A DNA stretch of 8,435 nucleotides from Candidatus Vampirococcus lugosii (GTDB lineage: Bacteria; Patescibacteriota; Gracilibacteria; Absconditabacterales; Absconditicoccaceae): assembly GCF_018420025.1 (NCBI RefSeq), contig NZ_JAEDAM010000040.1:1-8435 (forward strand). Direction: 5' to 3'. Below the pieces are notes generated by a model. It saw nothing but the letters and a program-made list of their open reading frames with translations. It was not told the origin of the DNA and did no database searches. This document shows positions 1 through 8,435 of this stretch, piece by piece. Within the stretch, counting starts at the first letter, position 1. Each line of letters opens with the position of its first letter. A program made the position numbers and the translations under genes.

Positions 1-43
1 CAGTTTTTTCTCTTAACTCTATTTCTTTTATTTTTTCTATCAT
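1..43 (-). CDS. 5' end of an unidentified gene that runs off the left edge
   Basis: Minus-strand ATG at 43-41, then an open frame to the window edge (MIEKIKEIELREKT...). It lies about 28 nt downstream of the promoter-like -10 inside the left repeat copy. Only 14 codons are visible, so no family can be assigned. Confidence 0.25.
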   Translation of the reverse strand, partial: MIEKIKEIELREKT

Positions 44-53
44 AATATTTTCA

Positions 54-809
54 TTATTTATAAATATATATATATATATTATAACTATTCTTACTAAAAA
101 AGCAAAATATTTTTAGTATAAATACATTTCAATCATAAATAACATTAATCTCATCTTGTGAAATATTTTGCATATGTGCAGATATAGCATATTGACAAAT
201 AATTTTAGGATCTTCAAATTTATCAACAAAAATTAAATCAAAATTATTTTTTATAATATGATAATGTTCTTCAAAAAGACCTAGATCAAATATTGTAAAC
301 AAAAAGTTTTCTATTTCATTAGAACTTAAACTATCAAATCAAAAATTTATTAAATCGTTAACAATTTCAACTAATAATTCATTATTATCTATATTTTGCT
401 CATTATCTATATTTTCCAAATAAGAATAAAATACAAATAATATTATTTTACTATAAGATGCATTTTTATCTATCAATATATTTAATATAGAATTATATCA
501 AATTCATTTAATTTTATCAATTTTAAATTTATATTTTAAATCATCAAAAAACATCTCTACATATTCAAAATAAGATTTTGGATATGAATTAGAAATATAT
601 TGAATATCTTCTTCAGTCAAAGAAGAGAATTTTTCATCAAGTTTATTTATATTCCAATTACTAGCTAGTTTTTCACTTCATTCCAAACTTCAACATAATT
701 TCATTTTTATTTTGGAAGAAATTTCTGAATATCTTCTAAATTTTTCTTGTACATCATTTCATTCAAAATCCATAATTTTCTCATCTAAATAGTTAGAATT
801 ATCTTTCAT
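54..809 (-). CDS. hypothetical protein (251 aa under table 25)
   Basis: Minus-strand ATG at 809-807, open with TGA=Gly to TAA at 56-54. I count 7 in-frame TGA (e.g. 761-759, 131-129). Translation: MKDNSNYLDEKIMDFEGNDVQEKFRRYSEISSKIK...QDEINVIYDGNVFILKIFCFFSKNSYNIYIYIYK. The composition is acidic and helix-like, with no motif I recognise. The last ~22 codons run through the left repeat copy and the (AT)8 tract, so the true 3' end is uncertain. Confidence 0.6.
59..120. repeat. left copy of a 62-bp inverted repeat (partner at 7726-7787)
   Basis: The reverse complement of 59-120 equals 7726-7787 at 61 of 62 positions; the only mismatch is 103 (c) against 7743 (a). It contains (AT)8 at 64-79 and a 9-bp hairpin (92-100 pairs with 110-118). 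Confidence 0.9.
78..105 (-). promoter_or_regulatory. promoter-like element inside the left repeat (-35 TTGCTT, 16-nt spacer, -10 TATAAT)
   Basis: On the minus strand, TTGCTT at 105-100, a 16-nt spacer, then TATAAT at 83-78. It faces the ATG at 43. AT-rich background makes false positives likely. Confidence 0.35.
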
Positions 810-844
810 AATTATATTAAACATTAAAATATTAAATAAATTCT

Positions 845-872
845 TGTATATTGAAATAAAAGTAATTGTCAA
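845..872 (-). promoter_or_regulatory. candidate sigma70-type promoter for the 54-809 gene
   Basis: On the minus strand, TTGACA at 872-867, a 16-nt spacer, then TATACA at 850-845, about 36 nt upstream of the ATG at 809. Confidence 0.3.
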
Positions 873-928
873 TATATAATAATTATATTTTTATATAAAT
901 AAATTAGAGAAAATTTGGAAAATTTTTC

Positions 929-979
929 AAATAAAAAATTAAGAGATAAAACAGTTATACTATATTAATCTCTTAATTT
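929..979 (-). terminator. intrinsic terminator downstream of ybaB
   Basis: Perfect 12-bp stem (936-947 aaattaagagat pairs with 968-979 atctcttaattt) with a 20-nt loop. On the minus strand the 3' arm runs into TTTTTTATTT. It lies 73 nt past the ybaB stop and before the next promoter candidate. The stem is AT-rich, with only 2 G:C pairs. Confidence 0.5.
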
Positions 980-1051
980 AAAAAAAACAATAAAGAACTT
1001 ATATTACATATAAACTAAAAATTATAAGATTGATTCAAAATGCAATATCTT

Positions 1052-1402
1052 TTACATACCAGGAATACTTGGCATAGATCATCAAGCTCATCCTCATCAC
1101 ATCATATTTGCCAAATCATTTGGATCAAAACCAAGTATTTCTTTAGTTTTTTGCATAGCAACTTCTTGTGCTTTTGTTTGACCTTTTTCAATAGCAGCTT
1201 TGATAGCATTTTCTATATCTTCTTTTCTAGATGGATCAAGCAATGTTTCATCTTCAATTTTAACATCTTTAACTTTCATTTCAGCAGTTATATCAATCAG
1301 AACTCAACTTTCCCTAGCTCTAATTATAGTATTTTTCATAACTTCTTGCAATTTTTTATACTTATGATACATTTGTGTCATATCTCACATATTTCAAAAC
1401 AT
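1052..1402 (-). CDS. ybaB: YbaB/EbfC-family nucleoid-associated DNA-binding protein (116 aa)
   Basis: Minus-strand ATG 1402-1400 to TAA 1054-1052 with TGA=Gly. Translation: MFGNMGDMTQMYHKYKKLQEVMK...GVLIDITAEMKVKDVKIEDETLLDPSRKEDIENAIKAAIEKGQTKAQE...NMMGGGGAGGSMPSIPGM. The N-terminal MFG..G.M, the LLD...E.IE.AI.AA core and the Gly/Pro/Met tail fit the YbaB pattern. Five tail glycines are TGA (1079-1099). The standard-code track shows only 60 aa of this gene. Confidence 0.9.
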
Positions 1403-1434
1403 TTTATATTTTTTATATTAAATTTTAAAATAAA

Positions 1435-2643
1435 TTATTTATTATTTTCATTATTAGAATTCAAAAATTCATAAAGCTTTTTCTCAGCAACAAATGGAGT
1501 TTCCCAATTTATATCTTTATCAATATCAAAATATTGAGAGACATATTTCAATATAAAGAATTTAGATAAACTATTTTCAGAAATATTTCTAACATCTTCT
1601 TTCATTTTATTAAGATCTTCTTCAGATAATTTTTCTAAATAATTTTTCATAGCTGTTTCTCAACCTAATCTTTTTTCAAAAGCTTTCATTCTAGCTTTTT
1701 CTTCTTCTTGTATTAATGTTTTAGGAATAGTAATACTTAAAGAATCACTTATATCTTTTATATATTTATCAGTAGTATCCAATAATTTCTTTTCAAATTT
1801 TTGACCTTTAATAGTTTCAGTAATTTTTTCTTTTAATTCAGCAAGATCTTTAACTTCTCATTTAAAAATTTCTTGTATTGTTTCATCATTAATTTCTGGT
1901 AAAACAACAATTTTAATATCAACTACAGTAAAAGATATTTTTGATGGCAAATTTTCATCTTTTTTGTAAGTCATAATATGAGGAAAAGAATTATGTTCAT
2001 AATCTAATTCAAAAGTTTCTCATATTTTTTTTCATATAAAATTTTTCTCTATAATTGAATGTTCTTTAATATCTTCTCTTCCAACAAACATTGTTGAACT
2101 ATCAAGAATATCTCACTTATCATCAACAAAATCAATTTTTATTTTGGCTACAGTATCTTGTGTTACAACTTCAGCATCTTCATATTTAGCATATTGTCTC
2201 ATTAAATTATTTATAGTTTCATTAATTTCTTCTTCACTAACTTCAATTAATATATCATCCATTTTTATTTGAGTCCAATTTTTGTTATTTTCTACAACTT
2301 CTGGATAATAATCTAATTTAAAAGAGCATTCAAAACTTCAATCATTAGTTTTTTGATTGAAATCATATATTTGTCATATAAATTTTATTTCTTTATTTTC
2401 ATCCAAAACCTTATTTAGAGAATTATATACAACCTCTTCATATATTCACATATTAACATATCAAGGATCTAATTTTTTTTCTATAAGTCAAATTGGAGCA
2501 TTTCATTTTCTAAAACCTGGAACTTCTATATCTTTTCATAATTTCTTAAGAACTTTTTCTTTATATTCTCACATATTTGCCAAATCTTCAGTAACAACAA
2601 TTTCATAATTACATTTAACTCATTTATTAAGTTTATAATTCAT
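1435..2643 (-). CDS. tig: trigger factor (ribosome-associated chaperone), 402 aa
   Basis: Minus-strand ATG 2643-2641 to TAA 1437-1435 with TGA=Gly. The ribosome-binding signature GFRxGxxP is present as VPGFRKGNAPIGLIEKK, and its second Gly is the TGA at 2505-2503. The C-terminal arm ...ITIPKTLIQEEEKARMKAFEKRLGGETAMKNYL... is typical of trigger factor. The standard-code track shows only the last 71 aa (1435-1650). Confidence 0.9.
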
Positions 2644-2681
2644 ATACAGATTATTTTATTTATATAAAAATATATTGTTTT

Positions 2682-2709
2682 AATATAAAGATAATATAAA
2701 TATTTTCAA
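2682..2709 (-). promoter_or_regulatory. candidate promoter for tig
   Basis: On the minus strand, TTGAAA at 2709-2704, a 16-nt spacer, then TATATT at 2687-2682, about 40 nt upstream of the tig ATG. Weak call in AT-rich DNA. Confidence 0.3.
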
Positions 2710-2815
2710 GAGAAAATTTTGTTTAATGTAATTACTGTTCTACATTATTTTTTTGAAAGAAAAATTTATAGATACAAATCTACTCTTATCAATAAATATA
2801 AATAATTTTTTAAAA

Positions 2816-4198
2816 TTAATATCTATAATATTGCCATTGAGCTGGAATTCATGTATTACTATAATCATTTAGATTATCTATAATTCATCAAAAATCATCT
2901 TGAATAATAATATTATAAAGTCTAATTTCTCTTGCTCATTTAGGATTTCATACATTTTCCAACTCCAAAACGAATTTAGCAGTAGTATTTCAACTTATAT
3001 AATTAATAAAATCTCAATTATTATTTATTTTCAAATATCTATTATCTTCAATATCTACAAGAGATGCACTACCATAAAGTTCATTATTATATTTAAGTAA
3101 AAATTTAGTATTTTTATTTGCCGTATTCAAAAAATTTCATGCTAGTTCAAAAACAAAACTATTCATAGTTAATCTATTTGCTCAAACAGCAATTTGAAAA
3201 GCATAAGATTTATAATAAGAAGTTTCAAAATCTTCATCAAAATTAATTCAAGGTCTAGATTTTAAAATTAATTTTTTCTTTGTACTGGAATAATCTGACT
3301 GAATATTCATAGGATTTCAATTTGAAAAAGAATATACTAATAATCAATTCTTTACAGAATCAATAGCATCCGTAGGATTATTTCAAATAGCAAATTCAAG
3401 TTCTCATATATGATTTTGATTTATAACTTCATTAAATTGAAAATATACATCAAGTTTCATAAATTCATTTCTTGGCAAGAAAAATCAATTTCATCAAATA
3501 TCAAAATTTATAAAATTTTGATCAACATATCAATTAGTAATTTTTTTTCAATCATATAGCAAAATTGCATCATTTATTAAATAATTTAAATCTAAATCAT
3601 CTCAAATATTTTCTAAATATAATTTCTTTAACAATCAAGAATCAAAATTTGCTTCCAAATTTAAAGAAAAAATATTTTCATAATCAGTAAAATCAAATTC
3701 TAAATATTGTTCATTTTCATTTATTTGTGTATCATTTTCATAGTTTTTTCAATCATTATTTTTAATTTTTTCTTCACTTTCAATTTTTTCCTCAATTTTA
3801 TTTTCTTCTATATCATTATTTTCAATTTTTTCTTCATTTTCAATTTTTTCCTCAATTTTATTTTCTCCTATATCATTATTTTCAATTTTTTCTTCATTTT
3901 TATTTTTTTCCTCAATTTTATTTTCTTTTCTATCTTGTATATCTTTAATATATTCATTTGTAAATTCTGATATTTTATTTAGTATTGTATATATTCTTTT
4001 ATTTTCTTCAAAATCTGTTAATATTTTTTCAATATTATTTAATACAAGATAAGTTTTAAATTCTTGATTTTTATATACATTTTCCAAATTTTGCAAAAAA
4101 TTATCAAGAGTTTTTTGATCTTCATTATTTAAAGTAAATCAAATCACAGTTCAAAAAGAAAAAACAATAAAGAAAAAAAATGTTAAAATAAATTTCAT
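2816..4198 (-). CDS. secreted or membrane-anchored repeat protein: N-terminal signal/anchor, acidic 20-aa tandem repeats, Gly/Asn/aromatic-rich C-terminal region (460 aa)
   Basis: Minus-strand ATG 4198-4196 to TAA 2818-2816. I checked every codon and found no TAA/TAG, but many in-frame TGA. The N-terminus MKFILTFFFFIVFSFGTVIGFTLNNEDQ is signal-peptide-like. The middle is about 3 copies of KIEEKIENEEKIENNDIEEN. The C-terminal ~300 aa (...GGNGFFLPRNEFMKLDVYFQF...NGLLVYSFSNGNPMNIQ...YAFQIAVGANRLTMNSFVFELAGNF...AKFVLELENVGNPKGAREIRLYNIIIQDDFGG...AQWQYYRY) looks beta-rich by composition. I recognise no family. Confidence 0.75.
3751..3934. repeat. 60-bp tandem repeat, about 3 copies, in frame within the 2816-4198 CDS
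   Basis: Units 3771-3830 and 3831-3890 differ at 2 of 60 positions (3777, 3867). A partial diverged unit lies at 3891-3934 and a partial leading unit at 3751-3770. The tract encodes the 20-aa EEKIEN-type repeats. Confidence 0.9.
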
Positions 4199-4341
4199 TG
4201 AATAATAAGATTAATAATTTAAATATATAACTTCATATACGAAATAAATAAAATAATGCAACAAGAATTTTTAGATTTTTCAACAAAATTAGTAGATATT
4301 TTTATAAAAAACAAAAAATCTTTAAATTACTTAATAATAAA

Positions 4342-4370
4342 TTGACAAATTAAATATAATTATATATAAT
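4342..4370 (+). promoter_or_regulatory. consensus sigma70-type promoter for the 4405-5634 gene
   Basis: Exact TTGACA (4342-4347), a 17-nt spacer, then exact TATAAT (4365-4370). The predicted start is near 4377, 28 nt upstream of the ATG at 4405. Confidence 0.6.
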
Positions 4371-4404
4371 ATATGGTAGTTTAATTAATTTAATTTTTGT
4401 GTTA

Positions 4405-5634
4405 ATGTTAAAAGATTTGTATAATTCTTATGTAAATAAAGATTGCAATAAAATGAAAGATCTTTTAATTTCTTTGGAAAAACAAGATCCTGATAGTCCA
4501 TATCTAAAAAAATATAAACAAATGTATCAAAATATTTGTAAAGATTGACAGAATTTACAAAAAGAATGAAAAATGAAAATATGATGAAAAGCTATACAAT
4601 GTACAAATTGTTTAAATTATTTGAGAACAAATAAAAATGTAAAAAAAATTTATCAAAATTATAAAAACTGAAAAACTAAACAACTTGAATTTAATTGTGA
4701 AAATTGCTGAATAAAATTCGTTTGGCAACAACATAATATAAAATCAATTTTTCTTGAAAATGTTTGAATATGAAAAAAAATAAATATAGAAAATAAAAAT
4801 TATACTATATCTTCTATTATAAGATATAAATGACGAGAAAAGAAAAAACATTTAATAAATTTGGAATACAATGAATACTTGCTTATAGATAATTCTTTAA
4901 ATAGATATTATCTTTTTGAGATAGAAAAAAATTTTAGTTCAGGATTTAAAGAATATAAAACAGAATTTAGTCGAGAAATTACTCCTCCTTTTTATATAAA
5001 AAAAATAAATTCTTCATATATAGAAAGCAATAAAGGAAATTTAAGTATATATAAAATACATGAAGTTGATGTAAAAAAAATTAATTGAAAAAATTTAAAA
5101 TCATATTTTGCTTGAAAAAAGATTATCTTGTATTATTTTTCTTTTTCTTGAAAAAATTATATTCTTGAAAAAGAGCTTTATTGAGAACAAAAAAAAATTT
5201 GAATTTATCAAATGGAAAATATAAATTTAGGTAAAAATAAAAAATTTTATGAAGATGAATGATTAAATTTATTTTATAATAAATTAATTGCTACCAATAT
5301 AATAAATGAAAAAAATTCATTTATATTTTTTATAATTATACTAATAACTTATGTAGGTATTGAAAAGATAAAAGAAGAAATACTACGAATAGCATGAGAT
5401 TATATAATAATATGATTTTGACCAAAAATAATTATATTGTTAATATTAATAATATTAATAATATTAATTTTTCATAAATATATATCAAAAAAGTTATATA
5501 AAATAAAATCATATGAACAAAAATTTATAATAAACTCTTTTGCAATATCATATTATGCAATAATATATTTTATATTACCAACACTTATAATTTTTTTAAT
5601 TATATATTTTTTGAAATCAATAATCTTTACATAA
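4405..5634 (+). CDS. zinc-ribbon protein with three C-terminal transmembrane helices and a possible DUF4178-like central region (409 aa)
   Basis: ATG 4405 (alternative GTG 4399) to TAA 5632-5634. I checked all codons: no TAA/TAG, many TGA. A CxxC...CxxC pair is present (IQCTNCLNYL at 4600-4611 and EFNCENCGIKF at 4696-4707). The central block VGIGKKINIENKNYTISSIIRYKG...LEYNEYLLIDNSLNRYYLFEIEKNF recalls DUF4178. Hydrophobic helices lie at about 5317-5361, 5401-5472 and 5524-5613. The standard-code track shows only two fragments (4861-5088 and 5437-5634). Confidence 0.75.
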
Positions 5635-5664
5635 GATATTAATATATAAAAAACAAATTTTTAT

Positions 5665-5692
5665 TTGAAAAATATTAATATATGTGTATATA
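5665..5692 (+). promoter_or_regulatory. candidate promoter for recX
   Basis: TTGAAA (5665-5670), a 16-nt spacer, then TATATA (5687-5692), about 35 nt upstream of the ATG at 5727. Confidence 0.3.
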
Positions 5693-5726
5693 CAATACAC
5701 TATTTAATTAATTTAATAAAATATTT

Positions 5727-6155
5727 ATGAAAAAAAAATGTATAGATTATGCAATGGATTATATTTACAAATTTCCTAAAACAGAATCACAACTTAAAAC
5801 TCAATTATTTAAAAAATGATATAATGATAAAGAAATAGAAATAACAATAAAATTACTTAAATCTAAAAATTATCTAAATGATAAAAATTATTGCGAAATT
5901 TATTTCAATTCAGAATGTGTAAAAAAATGAAAAGCATCTTATATAATAAAAAATAAATTAATTCAAAAATGAATAGATAAATCTATAGTTCAAGAAGTTT
6001 ATACAAATATGGAAAACGATATTTCCAAATGAATTAAAAAATGAATAATTAAAGAAATAGAAAAATATAAAAGTAAATGATTTGAATGATTTGATATAAT
6101 AAGAAAACTATGAGCTAGAGGTTATTCAATGGATGAAATCAAAACAGCTATATAA
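5727..6155 (+). CDS. recX: RecX-family regulatory protein (142 aa)
   Basis: ATG 5727 to TAA 6153-6155 with TGA=Gly. Translation: MKKKCIDYAMDYIYKFPKTESQLKTQLFKKGYNDKEIEITIKLLKSKNYLNDKNYCEIYFNSECVKKGKASYIIKNKLIQKGIDKSIVQEVY...KLGARGYSMDEIKTAI. It shows the repeated helical RecX pattern (L..KG(Y/I)....I......YLND..(Y/F)). The KG glycines are TGA (5817, 5928, 5970). This gene is entirely absent from the standard-code ORF track. Confidence 0.85.
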
Positions 6156-6156
6156 A

Positions 6157-6801
6157 TTAATTAATTTTAAATATATGTTTAAATATAAATTCTTGTAATT
6201 TAATCAATGGATTGTAGATAAATCTTTTGAAAAAATTAAATATTTTTGTATTTATCAAAACAAATGGAAGTAAAATTCAAAGAAAAAATCAAGCAATAAT
6301 ATCTGTAGGCCAATGAATACCTCAAGCTATTCTACTAAATCACATAACAAATGCAAATATAAAAAGTAAAAAAGAAATATTTATAAAAAATTTATTTTTT
6401 CTTTTAATTCACCATAATAAACTACTTGTTGCTATAGCTATACTTAAAGTCATATGATCTGATGGGAAACTTATATCTGGAAGATGTTCCAATATTAAAT
6501 TTTTTTTGGAAGAAATATGATCTTCAGGTCTATCTTTAATTACAAAAAATTGAAACATTTGACTTACAAACATAGAACTAACACCAGAAAAAAATATATA
6601 CAAAGATGCATATTTATAATTTATATCTTTATTAAATATTCAATAAATATATAAATATATTAAATATAGTGGATAAGTAAATACAAAAATATCAGCAGTA
6701 ATAGGAATAGTTTTTGATAAAAATTCATTTTTATCTACAAAATCATTTGCAAATTGTAAAAATTTTTTTCACCATTCTGGCTCAGTTAATTTTAAAAACA
6801 T
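6157..6801 (-). CDS. PAP2-superfamily membrane phosphatase, possibly an undecaprenyl-diphosphate/lipid phosphatase (214 aa)
   Basis: Minus-strand ATG 6801-6799 to TAA 6159-6157. PAP2 motifs are present: a C1-like ...VIKDRP; C2 (PSGH-type) as SFPSDH; and C3 (SR-x5-H-x3-D) as SRIAGGIHWPTD, with one Gly encoded by the TGA at 6324-6322. Several hydrophobic helices are present. Confidence 0.85.
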
Positions 6802-6954
6802 TATATAAATTTATTTATTAAATTTTAAATAATTTATATTTATATATTTTATTGATTTTTGCAACTTAAAATATATAGAAATTATTTATTTGAAATAAAA
6901 TAATAAATCATTATATATAATATATATTTAATTAGTTAAAAAAATTATACTTTA

Positions 6955-7752
6955 ATGGAAAATATAAGTTTATTAAATTATTTACAAAAAACTAAAGCAG
7001 TATCAAGAAGAGATTTTGTAGATATGATAAAAGAAGAAGCTGTATTTATTAATAATGAATTAGTATTAGATATAAATAAAAAAGTAAATATATGAGATAT
7101 ACTTACAGTAAAAATTTCTGAAAAAGAAGTATATGAAGAAAAAATAACAAAAATACCTAGTTTCAAACCTGTAATAGTAGCATTTAATAAACCAAAATGA
7201 TATGTAGTTTCCAAAAATGATAAACATAATAAAACTATATATTCATTATTACCAAAAAGTTGGCATAAAGATTTTTATTATATAGGTAGATTAGATAAAG
7301 AAAGTCATTGATTATTGTTATTAACAAATTCACCTCATCTTGTAGATTTTTATGAAAATCCAAAAAATAAAATAATAAAAATTTATGAAGTAAAAATAAA
7401 TAAACAATTAAAAACTAATCATATTAGCAAATTAAAAAAATGAAATATGCTTGATAAAGATTGAAATATTGATAATAAAAATTGAGAATTATTATCTTTT
7501 TATGATATACATAAAATAAAAGATAAGTATGATAATGAATTTTTGAGAATACTTCTTAAAGAATGAAAAAATCGTCATATAAGAAGATTATTAAAATCTG
7601 TTTGATATGAAGTAACTGATCTTAAAAGAGTAAAAGTTGGAAAATATGAACTATGAAACATAAAATTATGAAAATATATGATTCATAAATCAAAAGATAC
7701 TAAAAAAACTTATTGAAAAAAAGAATATACTAAAAATATTTTACTTTTTTAG
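6955..7752 (+). CDS. S4-domain RsuA/RluB-family rRNA pseudouridine synthase (265 aa)
   Basis: ATG 6955 to TAG 7750-7752; I checked every codon. It has an N-terminal S4-like region (LNYLQKTKAVSRRDFVDMIKEEAVFINNELV). NKPKGYVVS has its Gly as TGA at 7198. The catalytic motif YYIGRLDKESHGLLLLTN has a Gly as TGA at 7309. LKEGKNRHIRRLL has a Gly as TGA at 7564. The C-terminus reads GYEVTDLKRVKVGKYELGNIKLGKY. Confidence 0.9.
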
Positions 7753-7787
7753 TAAGAATAGTTATAATATATATATATATATTTATA
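7726..7787. repeat. right copy of the 62-bp inverted repeat (partner at 59-120)
   Basis: 61/62 identical to the reverse complement of 59-120. It covers the last 8 sense codons and the stop of the pseudouridine synthase gene. Its 9-bp hairpin (7728-7736 pairs with 7746-7754) encloses the TAG stop. An (AT)8 tract lies at 7767-7782. Confidence 0.9.
7741..7768 (+). promoter_or_regulatory. promoter-like element inside the right repeat (-35 TTACTT, 16-nt spacer, -10 TATAAT)
   Basis: Mirror of the element at 78-105. The single repeat mismatch falls in the -35 hexamer (TTACTT here, TTGCTT in the left copy). It fires toward the transposase remnant in antisense, with no obvious downstream plus-strand gene. 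Confidence 0.25.
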
Positions 7788-7817
7788 TACTAAAAACATT
7801 TACTAATATTAGTATAA

Positions 7818-8222
7818 TTATCTAATTATTTGAATTTTATTATTCAACAAACTAGATAATTTTTCCTTAAAAGTTAAATTAAATTCTCAGCAAATAGCCT
7901 TAATTTTTTCTATAAAATCAAGAAAATTAGGAGTATATGTATTTTTTAATACTTTTTTTAAAAATTTCCAAACTCTTTCTATTAAATTTAAATTAGGTGA
8001 ATATGGCGGTAAATAACACAGTTTTATTCACAGTTTTTCAGCTAAAATTTGAACTTCTTTAGCATGATTATATTTAGCATTATCTAAAATAATTACTATT
8101 TTTTTTCAGTTTCTGTACTCATTTCTAATTTTATCTCATCTTTGTAGAAAAAAATTTCTAAATTCTTGATTTAGACAAGGATTTGCAAGAAAATAAAAAT
8201 AGATTTGTGTACTACACAAATT
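7818..8222 (-). pseudogene. IS630/Tc1-mariner-type DDE (DDE_3) transposase, C-terminal fragment
   Basis: The minus-strand frame is open from 8222 to TAA at 7820-7818. Translation: ...EFRNFFLQRGDKIRNEYRNGKKIVIILDNAKYNHAKEVQILAEKLGIKLCYLPPYSPNLNLIERVWKFLKKKVLKNTYTPNF.... The ILDNA..H block (second catalytic Asp) and the LPPYSP.LN.IE..W block (third acidic residue) are hallmarks of this family. There is no Met anywhere in the frame and an in-frame TAA at 8225-8223. The HTH region and first catalytic Asp are missing. Confidence 0.7.
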
Positions 8223-8435
8223 TTATTTTAAATAATTTAAATAATTTTTCTTGAAGTTCATTTATTTGTTCTACTTTATTTATATGTATATTATCTATTT
8301 TAAAGTAAACTTTACTTAAATTTTTTAATTCAGTTAATAATGTATCTAATGTATATTCTTGTAATAAATCTTTAACTTTTAATCTAAAATCTTGAAGTAA
8401 ATAATAACTAATAAAACACATAAAAATATGTCATT
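8212..8435 (-). CDS. unknown ORF, partial or 69 aa
   Basis: The minus-strand frame is open from the window edge (TGA=Gly at 8433-8431) or from ATG 8421-8419, ending at TAG 8214-8212. Translation: (GHIF)MCFISYYLLQDFRLKVKDLLQEYTLDTLLTELKNLSKVYFKIDNIHINKVEQINELQEKLFKLFKIKFV. I recognise no family. It could be a decayed upstream piece of the transposase or the end of an unrelated gene. Confidence 0.35.

What the first reader, a model, noticed from the sequence alone, without database searches (positions are those of the whole stretch)
1..8435. The whole window is recoded: in-frame TGA encodes glycine (table 25), so the standard ORF track is misleading
Under the standard code every recognisable gene is broken by TGA, and the longest ORFs are antisense artefacts. 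Reading TGA as a sense codon gives eight uninterrupted genes. In those genes TGA falls on invariant glycines of well-known motifs:
- Trigger factor GFRxGxxP (TGA at 2505-2503).
- Pseudouridine synthase NKPKGY, GRLDKESHGLLLLTN and LKEGKNRHIRR (TGA at 7198, 7309, 7564).
- PAP2 SRIAGGIHWPTD (TGA at 6324-6322).
- RecX KKGY and QKGI (TGA at 5817, 5970).
- YbaB tail NMMGGGGAGGSMPSIPGM (five TGA in 1079-1099).
Tryptophan at conserved positions is still TGG (ERVW at 7970-7968, HWPTD at 6312-6310), which argues against the Mycoplasma-type TGA=Trp code. Among bacteria, TGA=Gly is known only from Absconditabacteria (SR1) and Gracilibacteria in the candidate phyla radiation. This places the source organism there and means default annotation pipelines would miss almost everything in the window.
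Basis: partly seen in the sequence, partly recalled or inferred. Interest (0 to 1): 0.85.

Follow-up and report, generated by a model that had tools for sequence, protein, structure and literature searches.

The report
UGA-as-glycine contig of Vampirococcus lugosii

Summary
Under the standard code, ORFs of at least 60 aa cover 30% of the window, and only 19% is genuine coding frame. With TGA read as sense, nine long ORFs plus one short one cover 88%. All of them end in TAA or TAG.

Glycine is the best reading of TGA. I substituted each of the 20 amino acids at 23 TGA positions and scored against Pfam. Glycine scored 203.9 bits, serine 182.9, alanine 180.6 and tryptophan 150.5, near the worst. 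Solved-structure homologues carry Gly, never Trp, at the conserved TGA columns. In orthologous trigger-factor genes, the window's TGA codons align with GGN codons and its GGN codons align with TGA. TGG keeps to the conserved Trp columns.

The source organism is identified. One encoded protein is 100% identical to a GenBank protein of Candidatus Vampirococcus lugosii (Absconditabacteria) on a contig of exactly 8435 nt. The 2021 genome paper states UGA=Gly and used table 25. The feature is therefore correct but already known.

- There are nine or ten ORFs, not eight.
- The PAP2 TGA lies next to the invariant glycine, not on it.
- Pipelines that fall back to table 4 do recover the genes, but with Trp in place of Gly.

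One question stays open. Absconditabacteria are reported to read CGA and CGG as Trp. The window's three CGA codons cannot settle this.

The parts
54..824 (-). Hypothetical protein g1 (256 aa, 7 in-frame TGA, stop TAA)
   Evidence: Open frame only if TGA is sense. No Pfam or NCBIfam match.
1052..1402 (-). YbaB/EbfC nucleoid-associated protein (116 aa, 8 TGA, five of them in the Gly-rich tail at 1079-1099)
   Evidence: PF02575 at 43.7 bits. TIGR00103. TGA coordinates. The tig-ybaB order is conserved in L004 and L006.
1435..2643 (-). Trigger factor (402 aa, 14 TGA; TGA 2503-2505 is the second Gly of GFRKG)
   Evidence: Trigger_N 77.4 bits with Gly vs 61.6 with Trp. Solved homologues have G at that column. 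Outgroup G 5/5 at four TGA columns. Codon-level TGA/GGN exchange with orthologues.
2816..4198 (-). Hypothetical protein g4 (460 aa, 24 TGA) with a hydrophobic N-terminus and acidic EEKIENN-type repeats
   Evidence: Direct-repeat family D1 at 3663-3962. No family match.
4405..5634 (+). Hypothetical membrane protein g5 (409 aa, 18 TGA; the window's only three CGA codons at 4834, 4972, 5386)
   Evidence: 100% identical to GenBank protein P0121 of Candidatus Vampirococcus lugosii, contig length 8435. Family of about 50 members. CGA positions.
5727..6155 (+). RecX (142 aa, 8 TGA, including 5817 and 5970)
   Evidence: RecX_HTH1 41.4 and HTH2 26.7 bits with Gly vs 26.9 and 15 with Trp. QKG column is G in both solved RecX structures. 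NCBIfam RecX models.
6157..6801 (-). PAP2-family lipid phosphatase, closest to undecaprenyl-diphosphate phosphatase (214 aa, 7 TGA)
   Evidence: PF01569 63.8 bits with Gly vs 47.9 with Trp. TGA columns 154, 171 and 175 are G in solved homologues; column 160 (6322-6324) is A or L. NF008813.
6955..7752 (+). RsuA/RluB/RluF-family pseudouridine synthase with S4 domain (265 aa, 11 TGA, including 7198, 7309, 7564; stop TAG)
   Evidence: PF00849 66.6 bits with Gly vs 44.8 with Trp. TIGR00093 at 113.8 bits, above cutoff. G in RluF, RluB or RluE at 7 of 11 TGA columns.
7818..8222 (-). IS630-family transposase fragment, C-terminal third only (134 codons, 4 TGA; ERVW Trp is TGG 7968-7970)
   Evidence: PF13358 DDE_3 at 75.6 bits, profile positions 52-138 of 146. 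NF033545 positions 204-299 of 299.
8212..8421 (-). 69-codon ORF upstream of the transposase fragment, in another frame and open to the contig end
   Evidence: No family match.
59..120 (-). Copy 1 of a 62-nt repeat at the 3' end of g1
   Evidence: 61 of 62 identical to 7726-7787 in inverted orientation.
7726..7787 (+). Copy 2 of the 62-nt repeat, spanning the stop codon of the pseudouridine synthase gene

Best explanation
The window is a whole contig of the Absconditabacteria (SR1) bacterium Candidatus Vampirococcus lugosii. That organism translates with genetic code 25: UGA is a glycine codon, UGG remains tryptophan, and only UAA and UAG terminate.

The mechanism is inferred from the published biology of the clade and is not visible in this window. 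A tRNA-Gly with anticodon UCA reads UGA, and release factor 2 has been lost.

The genome is extremely AT-rich, and UGA is the most AT-rich glycine codon. It has become the majority glycine codon here (101 of 122 Gly codons, 83%).
For: Shown here:
- Open frames exist only with TGA as sense, and all end in TAA or TAG.
- Glycine beats all 19 other amino acids at 23 TGA positions. The sum over Trigger_N, PseudoU_synth_2 and PAP2 is G 203.9, S 182.9, A 180.6, N 174.2 and W 150.5 bits. RecX_HTH2 is detected only with G.
- Whole-protein Pfam scores favour G over W by about 88 bits in total.
- Solved homologues have G at GFRKG, NKPxG, SxGLL, EGxNR, VGY, QKGI and the PAP2 columns 154, 171 and 175. None has W at any TGA column.
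- Standard-code trigger factors P0116-P0120 have G 5/5 at TGA columns 47, 204, 208 and 262.
- In orthologous genes the window's TGA aligns with GGA, GGT or GGC, its GGN aligns with TGA, and its TGG aligns with TGG, CGG or CGA (the printed columns are in the order P0002, P0021, P0003).

Identity:
- g5 is 100% identical to a GenBank V. lugosii protein on an 8435-nt contig.
- The closest named trigger factor is from Candidatus Absconditicoccus praedator, 49% identity.

Literature:
- Moreira et al. 2021 (PMC8080830) state UGA=Gly for this genome and used Prodigal table 25.
- Shulgina and Eddy 2021 (PMC8629427) list UGA=Gly for Absconditabacteria with tRNA-UCA-Gly.
Against: No tRNA gene lies in the window or in the six related loci scanned. 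Neither tRNA-Gly(UCA) nor the absence of prfB was seen directly.

Many TGA columns fall at unconserved positions and carry no information on their own. Examples are trigger-factor positions 25, 52, 61 and 102.

Serine and alanine score almost as well as glycine in Trigger_N alone (77.5 and 75.3 vs 77.7 bits). The discrimination comes from the other domains.
Confidence: 0.97

Rival explanations
1. The code is table 25 plus a second change. As reported for Absconditabacteria, CGA and CGG would encode tryptophan rather than arginine. Table 25 and the GenBank translation would then be wrong at the three CGA codons of g5 (4834, 4972, 5386). This extends the main explanation rather than replacing it.
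For: - Shulgina and Eddy 2021 predict CGA and CGG to Trp across Absconditabacteria.
- In the trigger-factor family, the two conserved Trp columns, which are TGG in the window, carry R in 41 of 113 relatives.
- In GCA_017992195.1 those two R residues are encoded by CGG and CGA.
- In the g5 family, relative P0128 has CGA at a conserved Trp column.
- The window's CGA at aa 190 aligns with TGG-Trp in the V. lugosii paralogue P0122 and in P0128.
- The CGA at aa 144 can be aligned to the conserved Trp column, and W scores 2.0 bits above R there.
Against: - There are only three CGA and no CGG codons, all in one lineage-specific protein.
- Column 190 is variable (E, K, R, Q), and W scores 1.0 bit below R there. 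W scores 1.4 bits below R at aa 328. The net for all three is -0.4 bits.
- The nearest relatives (P0002 and A. praedator) use TGG at the trigger-factor Trp columns and have no CGA or CGG in that gene.
- A TGG to CGG to CGA path is also an ordinary Trp-to-Arg substitution.
Confidence: 0.5
2. TGA encodes tryptophan, as in Mycoplasma and some insect endosymbionts (table 4).
For: - Table 4 gives the same open frames.
- Public gene catalogues already hold the table-4 translation of this trigger factor (P0001).
- The genome is very AT-rich, as table-4 organisms are.
Against: - Trp is among the worst of 20 residues at the TGA positions (150.5 vs 203.9 bits).
- No TGA column aligns to Trp in any standard-code homologue.
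- Trp would make up 4.6% of residues and Gly 0.9%.
- The conserved Trp columns use TGG.
Confidence: 0.01
3. The code is standard and the genes are decayed pseudogenes, or the TGAs are sequencing errors.
For: - The assembly came from amplified DNA of a few cells.
- One gene, the IS630 transposase, really is truncated.
Against: - TGA is the only in-frame stop type. There are 101 TGA and no TAA or TAG across 2428 codons.
- TGA sits on functionally invariant glycines.
- Independent Logan assemblies of two sequencing runs are 100% and 99.97% identical to the window.
- Orthologues in other genomes carry TGA at the same Gly columns.
Confidence: 0.005

Closest known systems
[quoted passage not shown] 2013; Rinke et al. 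2013)
   Same: - UGA is read as glycine.
- UGG is kept for Trp.
- UAA and UAG are the only stops.
- The genome is of low GC.
- The organism belongs to the named clade.
   Different: Nothing differs in kind. This contig is more AT-rich (18.4% GC) than the 0.21-0.53 range quoted for the two clades. UGA supplies 83% of its glycine codons, similar to close relatives at 76% and 85%.
Published genome of Candidatus Vampirococcus lugosii (Moreira et al. 2021, PMC8080830)
   Same: It is the same sequence. g5 equals a GenBank V. lugosii protein on an 8435-nt contig. The paper reports UGA=Gly and annotation with table 25.
   Different: The paper does not discuss CGA or CGG decoding. The GenBank translation reads CGA as Arg.
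CGA/CGG to Trp reassignment in Absconditabacteria (Shulgina and Eddy 2021, PMC8629427)
   Same: - The clade is the same.
- Relatives of the window's trigger factor and g5 show CGA or CGG at conserved Trp columns.
   Different: Not demonstrated for this organism. The window's three CGA codons give a net score of -0.4 bits for Trp against Arg.
Genetic code 4 (Mycoplasmatales, Entomoplasmatales and some insect endosymbionts; UGA=Trp)
   Same: - UGA is a sense codon.
- The genome is AT-rich.
- Gene finders that fall back to table 4 recover the same ORFs.
   Different: The amino acid differs. Glycine fits and tryptophan does not.

Membership tests
Genetic code 25 (SR1/Gracilibacteria) | In-frame UGA inside conserved protein-coding genes, with UAA and UAG as the only terminators | tested here: met
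   There are 101 in-frame TGA and no in-frame TAA or TAG. All ten ORFs end in TAA (8) or TAG (2).
Genetic code 25 (SR1/Gracilibacteria) | UGA columns correspond to glycine in homologues | tested here: met
   Gly is best of 20 residues at 203.9 bits, with serine next at 182.9. Solved homologues and standard-code outgroups have G. TGA and GGN exchange between orthologues.
Genetic code 25 (SR1/Gracilibacteria) | UGG still encodes tryptophan and is distinct from UGA | tested here: met
   TGG occupies the two conserved Trp columns of trigger factor, where relatives have W in 83 and 79 of 113 sequences. It also occupies the IS630 ERVW and PAP2 HWP columns.
Genetic code 25 (SR1/Gracilibacteria) | tRNA-Gly with anticodon UCA | not testable with these tools
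   No tRNA gene lies in the window or in six related loci. It is reported for the clade.
Genetic code 25 (SR1/Gracilibacteria) | Release factor 2 (prfB) absent | not testable with these tools
   This needs the whole genome. The only related observation is an RF1-type factor (PET and GGQ motifs, no SPF) near tig in A. praedator.
Genetic code 25 (SR1/Gracilibacteria) | Organism belongs to Absconditabacteria or Gracilibacteria | tested here: met
   g5 is 100% identical to a V. lugosii GenBank protein. The nearest named trigger factor is from A. praedator. The paper places V. lugosii in Absconditabacteria.
Genetic code 4 (UGA=Trp) | UGA columns correspond to tryptophan | tested here: not met
   Trp scores 150.5 bits against 203.9 for Gly. 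No TGA column aligns to W in standard-code homologues.
Extended Absconditabacteria code (CGA/CGG=Trp) | CGA and CGG codons fall on conserved Trp columns | tested here: inconclusive
   There are three CGA and no CGG codons. W against R scores +2.0, -1.0 and -1.4 bits. One CGA aligns to TGG-Trp in the paralogue.

The most novel reading that the evidence does not exclude
Candidatus Vampirococcus lugosii may use more than table 25. Like other Absconditabacteria, it may also read CGA (and CGG) as tryptophan. If so, the deposited table-25 proteome carries Arg where the cell inserts Trp, including at three positions of g5 in this window.
Probability: 0.5. Interest if true: 0.3.

Novelty: already known. 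Interest (0 to 1): 0.1.

Why it matters
This is a correct rediscovery, made from raw sequence, of a published recoding. It shows that a reader without tools can recognise code 25.

The practical lesson concerns databases. The same genes sit in public protein catalogues as table-4 mistranslations, with Trp at every recoded glycine (14 in this trigger factor). In one related genome (GCA_017992195.1) the gene calls around tig are short and fragmented, which looks like table-11 calling; I did not check this directly. Both kinds of error weaken homology searches, family profiles and structure prediction for this clade.

The possible second reassignment (CGA and CGG to Trp) would mean that even the table-25 annotation is slightly wrong. 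That idea is also already in the literature for the clade.

Tried and rejected
- **Exact contig look-ups.** P0121 and P0122 are not on record. I could therefore not reach more of the V. lugosii genome.
- **Collection scans.** A genome-contig scan with the trigger factor found no relative. Exact scans of metagenome contigs and genome contigs for the 62-nt repeat core found nothing, so the source genome is in neither collection.
- **RNA genes.** tRNA scans of the window and six related loci found none. Rfam found nothing in the window.
- **The 62-nt repeat as a hairpin or terminator.** Folding gave z-scores of -1.4 and -0.8, which are not significant.
- **CGA=Trp test on g5.** A family profile gave no decision.
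- **Oversized substitution set.** A first 20-residue set built from whole concatenated proteins was too large to submit. I replaced it with domain segments.
- **Rejected readings.** Table 4, pseudogene decay and sequencing error are rejected; see the rival explanations.


Full report
**1. The observation**

The window is 8435 nt with 18.4% GC. The standard-code ORF list has only 12 ORFs of at least 60 aa. They cover 30% of the window. Five are antisense artefacts, including the longest (1040-1474+, which lies opposite ybaB and tig). Seven are genuine in-frame fragments covering 19%.

Treating TGA as sense gives ten ORFs, covering 88% of the window:
- g1, 54-824(-)
- ybaB, 1052-1402(-)
- tig, 1435-2643(-)
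- g4, 2816-4198(-)
- g5, 4405-5634(+)
- recX, 5727-6155(+)
- pap2, 6157-6801(-)
- an RsuA-family pseudouridine synthase, 6955-7752(+)
- an IS630 transposase fragment, 7818-8222(-)
- a 69-codon ORF, 8212-8421(-)

TAA is 5.1% and TAG 1.2% of all trinucleotide positions. The chance that frames of 116-460 codons avoid both is 5e-4 to 8e-14 per gene. All ORFs end in TAA or TAG.

**2. Which amino acid TGA encodes**

The coding frames hold 101 TGA, 21 GGN and 10 TGG codons. TGA=Trp would give 4.6% Trp and 0.9% Gly. TGA=Gly gives 5.0% Gly and 0.4% Trp.

Pfam scores with Gly exceed those with Trp in every domain:

| Domain | Gly | Trp |
|---|---|---|
| Trigger_N | 77.4 | 61.6 |
| PseudoU_synth_2 | 66.6 | 44.8 |
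| PAP2 | 63.8 | 47.9 |
| RecX_HTH1 | 41.4 | 26.9 |
| RecX_HTH2 | 26.7 | 15.0 |
| S4 | 21.2 | 16.2 |
| YbaB | 43.7 | 42.0 |
| DDE_3 | 75.6 | 74.6 |

I then replaced the 23 TGA positions of four domain segments by each of the 20 amino acids, in the manner of Codetta. The sums over Trigger_N, PseudoU_synth_2 and PAP2 were G 203.9, S 182.9, A 180.6, N 174.2, T 173.2 and Q 169.5 bits. At the bottom were W 150.5, I 149.5 and F 149.1. RecX_HTH1 scored 31.2 with G and at most 27.2 with any other residue. RecX_HTH2 passed the threshold only with G.

I also searched solved structures with X at the TGA positions, so that the alignments were not biased toward any residue.
- Trigger factor: G at GFRKG in all three solved chains.
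- Pseudouridine synthase: G in RluF, RluB or RluE at 7 of 11 TGA columns, namely NKPxG, SxGLL, the column after LKK, EGxNR, VGY, PGD and LGxW.
- PAP2: G at columns 154, 171 and 175.
- RecX: G at QKGI in both structures.

No solved homologue has Trp at any TGA column.

**3. Codon-level comparison with relatives**

The trigger factor has 309 relatives. Almost all lack a PPIase domain and belong to the recoded clade. Five standard-code outgroup proteins (P0116-P0120) have G 5/5 at TGA columns 47, 204, 208 and 262, and at the window's GGN columns 43 and 188.

I fetched the DNA of three orthologues. L004 is an unnamed relative with 25% GC. L005 is GCA_017992195.1 with 42% GC. L006 is Candidatus Absconditicoccus praedator with 26% GC.

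In one search the printed columns are in the order P0002, P0021, P0003.
- The window's TGA aligns with GGA, GGC or GGT at positions 8, 47, 66, 90, 177, 204 and 328.
- The window's GGN aligns with TGA at positions 43, 188 and 327.
- The window's TGG at 123 and 380 aligns with TGG, or with CGG and CGA in P0021. It never aligns with TGA.

TGA and GGN therefore behave as synonymous codons, and TGG is separate.

**4. Identity of the source**

g5 is 100% identical over 409 aa to a GenBank protein of Candidatus Vampirococcus lugosii whose contig is 8435 nt long. A 52%-identical paralogue lies on another contig of the same organism. The match includes Gly at all 18 TGA positions, so GenBank uses table 25.

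Moreira et al. 2021 (PMC8080830) describe a 1,310,663-bp assembly with 1151 protein genes and 38 tRNA genes. They state that UGA is reassigned to glycine and report gene calling with Prodigal table 25.

Logan assemblies of runs SRR13241708 and SRR13241709 are 100% and 99.97% identical to window 93-3837. Their gene calls translate TGA as Trp: P0001 equals the trigger factor with 14 W in place of G.

The closest named trigger factor is from A. praedator, at 49% identity. The tig-ybaB order is conserved in L004 and L006.

**5. Mechanism**

Shown here: TGA is a sense codon that behaves as glycine, TGG is Trp, and TAA and TAG terminate.

Inferred from the clade's literature: a tRNA-Gly(UCA) decodes UGA, and RF2 is absent. 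Neither can be seen in this window, because no tRNA gene was found. In A. praedator, a release factor near tig has the RF1-type P-x-T motif (PET) and GGQ but no SPF. This fits an RF1-only system but does not prove it.

UGA supplies 83% of the glycine codons in the window, 85% in L004 and 76% in L006. This is as expected if AT-biased mutation converts GGN to UGA once UGA is readable.

**6.

- There are nine long ORFs plus a short one, not eight.
- The PAP2 TGA (6322-6324) is the residue before the invariant Gly of SRxxxGxH. The invariant Gly is GGN-coded, and homologues have A or L at the TGA column. The RecX KKGY column is D in both solved RecX proteins, although the Pfam profile favours G there.
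- Default pipelines do not all fail. Those that fall back to table 4 recover the ORFs but mistranslate them.
- Table 25 may not be the whole story. Shulgina and Eddy 2021 predict CGA and CGG to Trp in Absconditabacteria.

On the last point, I saw the signature in relatives. The two conserved Trp columns of trigger factor carry R in 41 of 113 relatives, and in P0021 those R are encoded by CGG and CGA. In the g5 family, P0128 has CGA at a conserved Trp column.

The window has only three CGA codons, all in g5. One aligns with TGG-Trp in the paralogue and in P0128. One can be aligned to the conserved Trp column. A family-profile test gives +2.0, -1.0 and -1.4 bits for W against R. This is unresolved.

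**7. Verdict**

The finding is real and correctly interpreted. It is also the published, annotated genetic code of a named organism, so its novelty is nil and its interest is low. The most novel reading still open is the additional CGA and CGG to Trp change in this species. I put its probability at about 0.5. It too is already published for the clade.

Noticed in passing
window 59-120 and 7726-7787: A 62-nt sequence is present twice in inverted orientation, 61 of 62 identical. Each copy sits at the 3' end of an outward-facing gene (g1 and the pseudouridine synthase) and overlaps the end of the coding sequence. It contains a 9-bp AT-only inverted repeat followed by a (TA)n run. It may be a repeated intergenic element or a terminator. 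Its predicted fold is no better than that of shuffled sequence.
   Followed up: partly
window 7818-8435: The contig ends in a degenerate IS630-family transposase. Only the C-terminal third of the protein model is present (NF033545 positions 204-299 of 299). It is preceded by a 69-codon ORF in another frame that stays open to the contig end. This is probably a multi-copy element that broke the assembly.
   Followed up: partly
window 4834, 4972, 5386 (g5); L005 tig; L003 3001-4521: The window's three CGA codons are all in g5. In relatives, CGA and CGG sit at conserved Trp columns (tig of GCA_017992195.1; the g5 homologue P0128 of GCA_020627925.1). This matches the published CGA/CGG=Trp reassignment in Absconditabacteria. 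It is undecided for this organism.
   Followed up: yes
window 1435-2643 (tig): The trigger factor has Trigger_N (residues 1-147) and Trigger_C (267-365) but no detectable FKBP-type PPIase domain between them. The same is true of nearly all recoded-clade relatives. The standard-code outgroup hits P0116-P0120 carry PF00254.
   Followed up: no
window 1-8435; L004, L006: The contig has 18.4% GC. This is below the 0.21-0.53 range quoted for Absconditabacteria and Gracilibacteria genomes, and below the 25-26% of the closest relatives' loci. Whether the whole genome is this AT-rich was not checked.
   Followed up: partly
P0001 (Logan SRR13241708/9), L005 gene calls: Public protein catalogues hold table-4 mistranslations of these genes. 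The trigger factor appears with 14 Trp in place of Gly. Most members of the g5 family have 4-10% W. In one related genome (GCA_017992195.1) the called genes are short and fragmented, which looks like table-11 calling; I did not verify this.
   Followed up: partly
window 4405-5634 (g5) and family P0122-P0171: g5 belongs to a family of about 50 proteins with no Pfam domain. By their W-rich translations they appear confined to recoded genomes. They share an N-terminal CxxC...CxxC pair, a conserved YxGxW and LEYxEW core, and C-terminal transmembrane segments. V. lugosii has at least two paralogues.
   Followed up: partly
window 3663-3962 (within g4): g4 is a 460-aa protein with a hydrophobic N-terminus. 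It contains acidic tandem repeats (EEKIENNDIEENKIEEKIE; DNA periods of 18, 24 and 60 nt). No homologous family was found in Pfam or NCBIfam.
   Followed up: no
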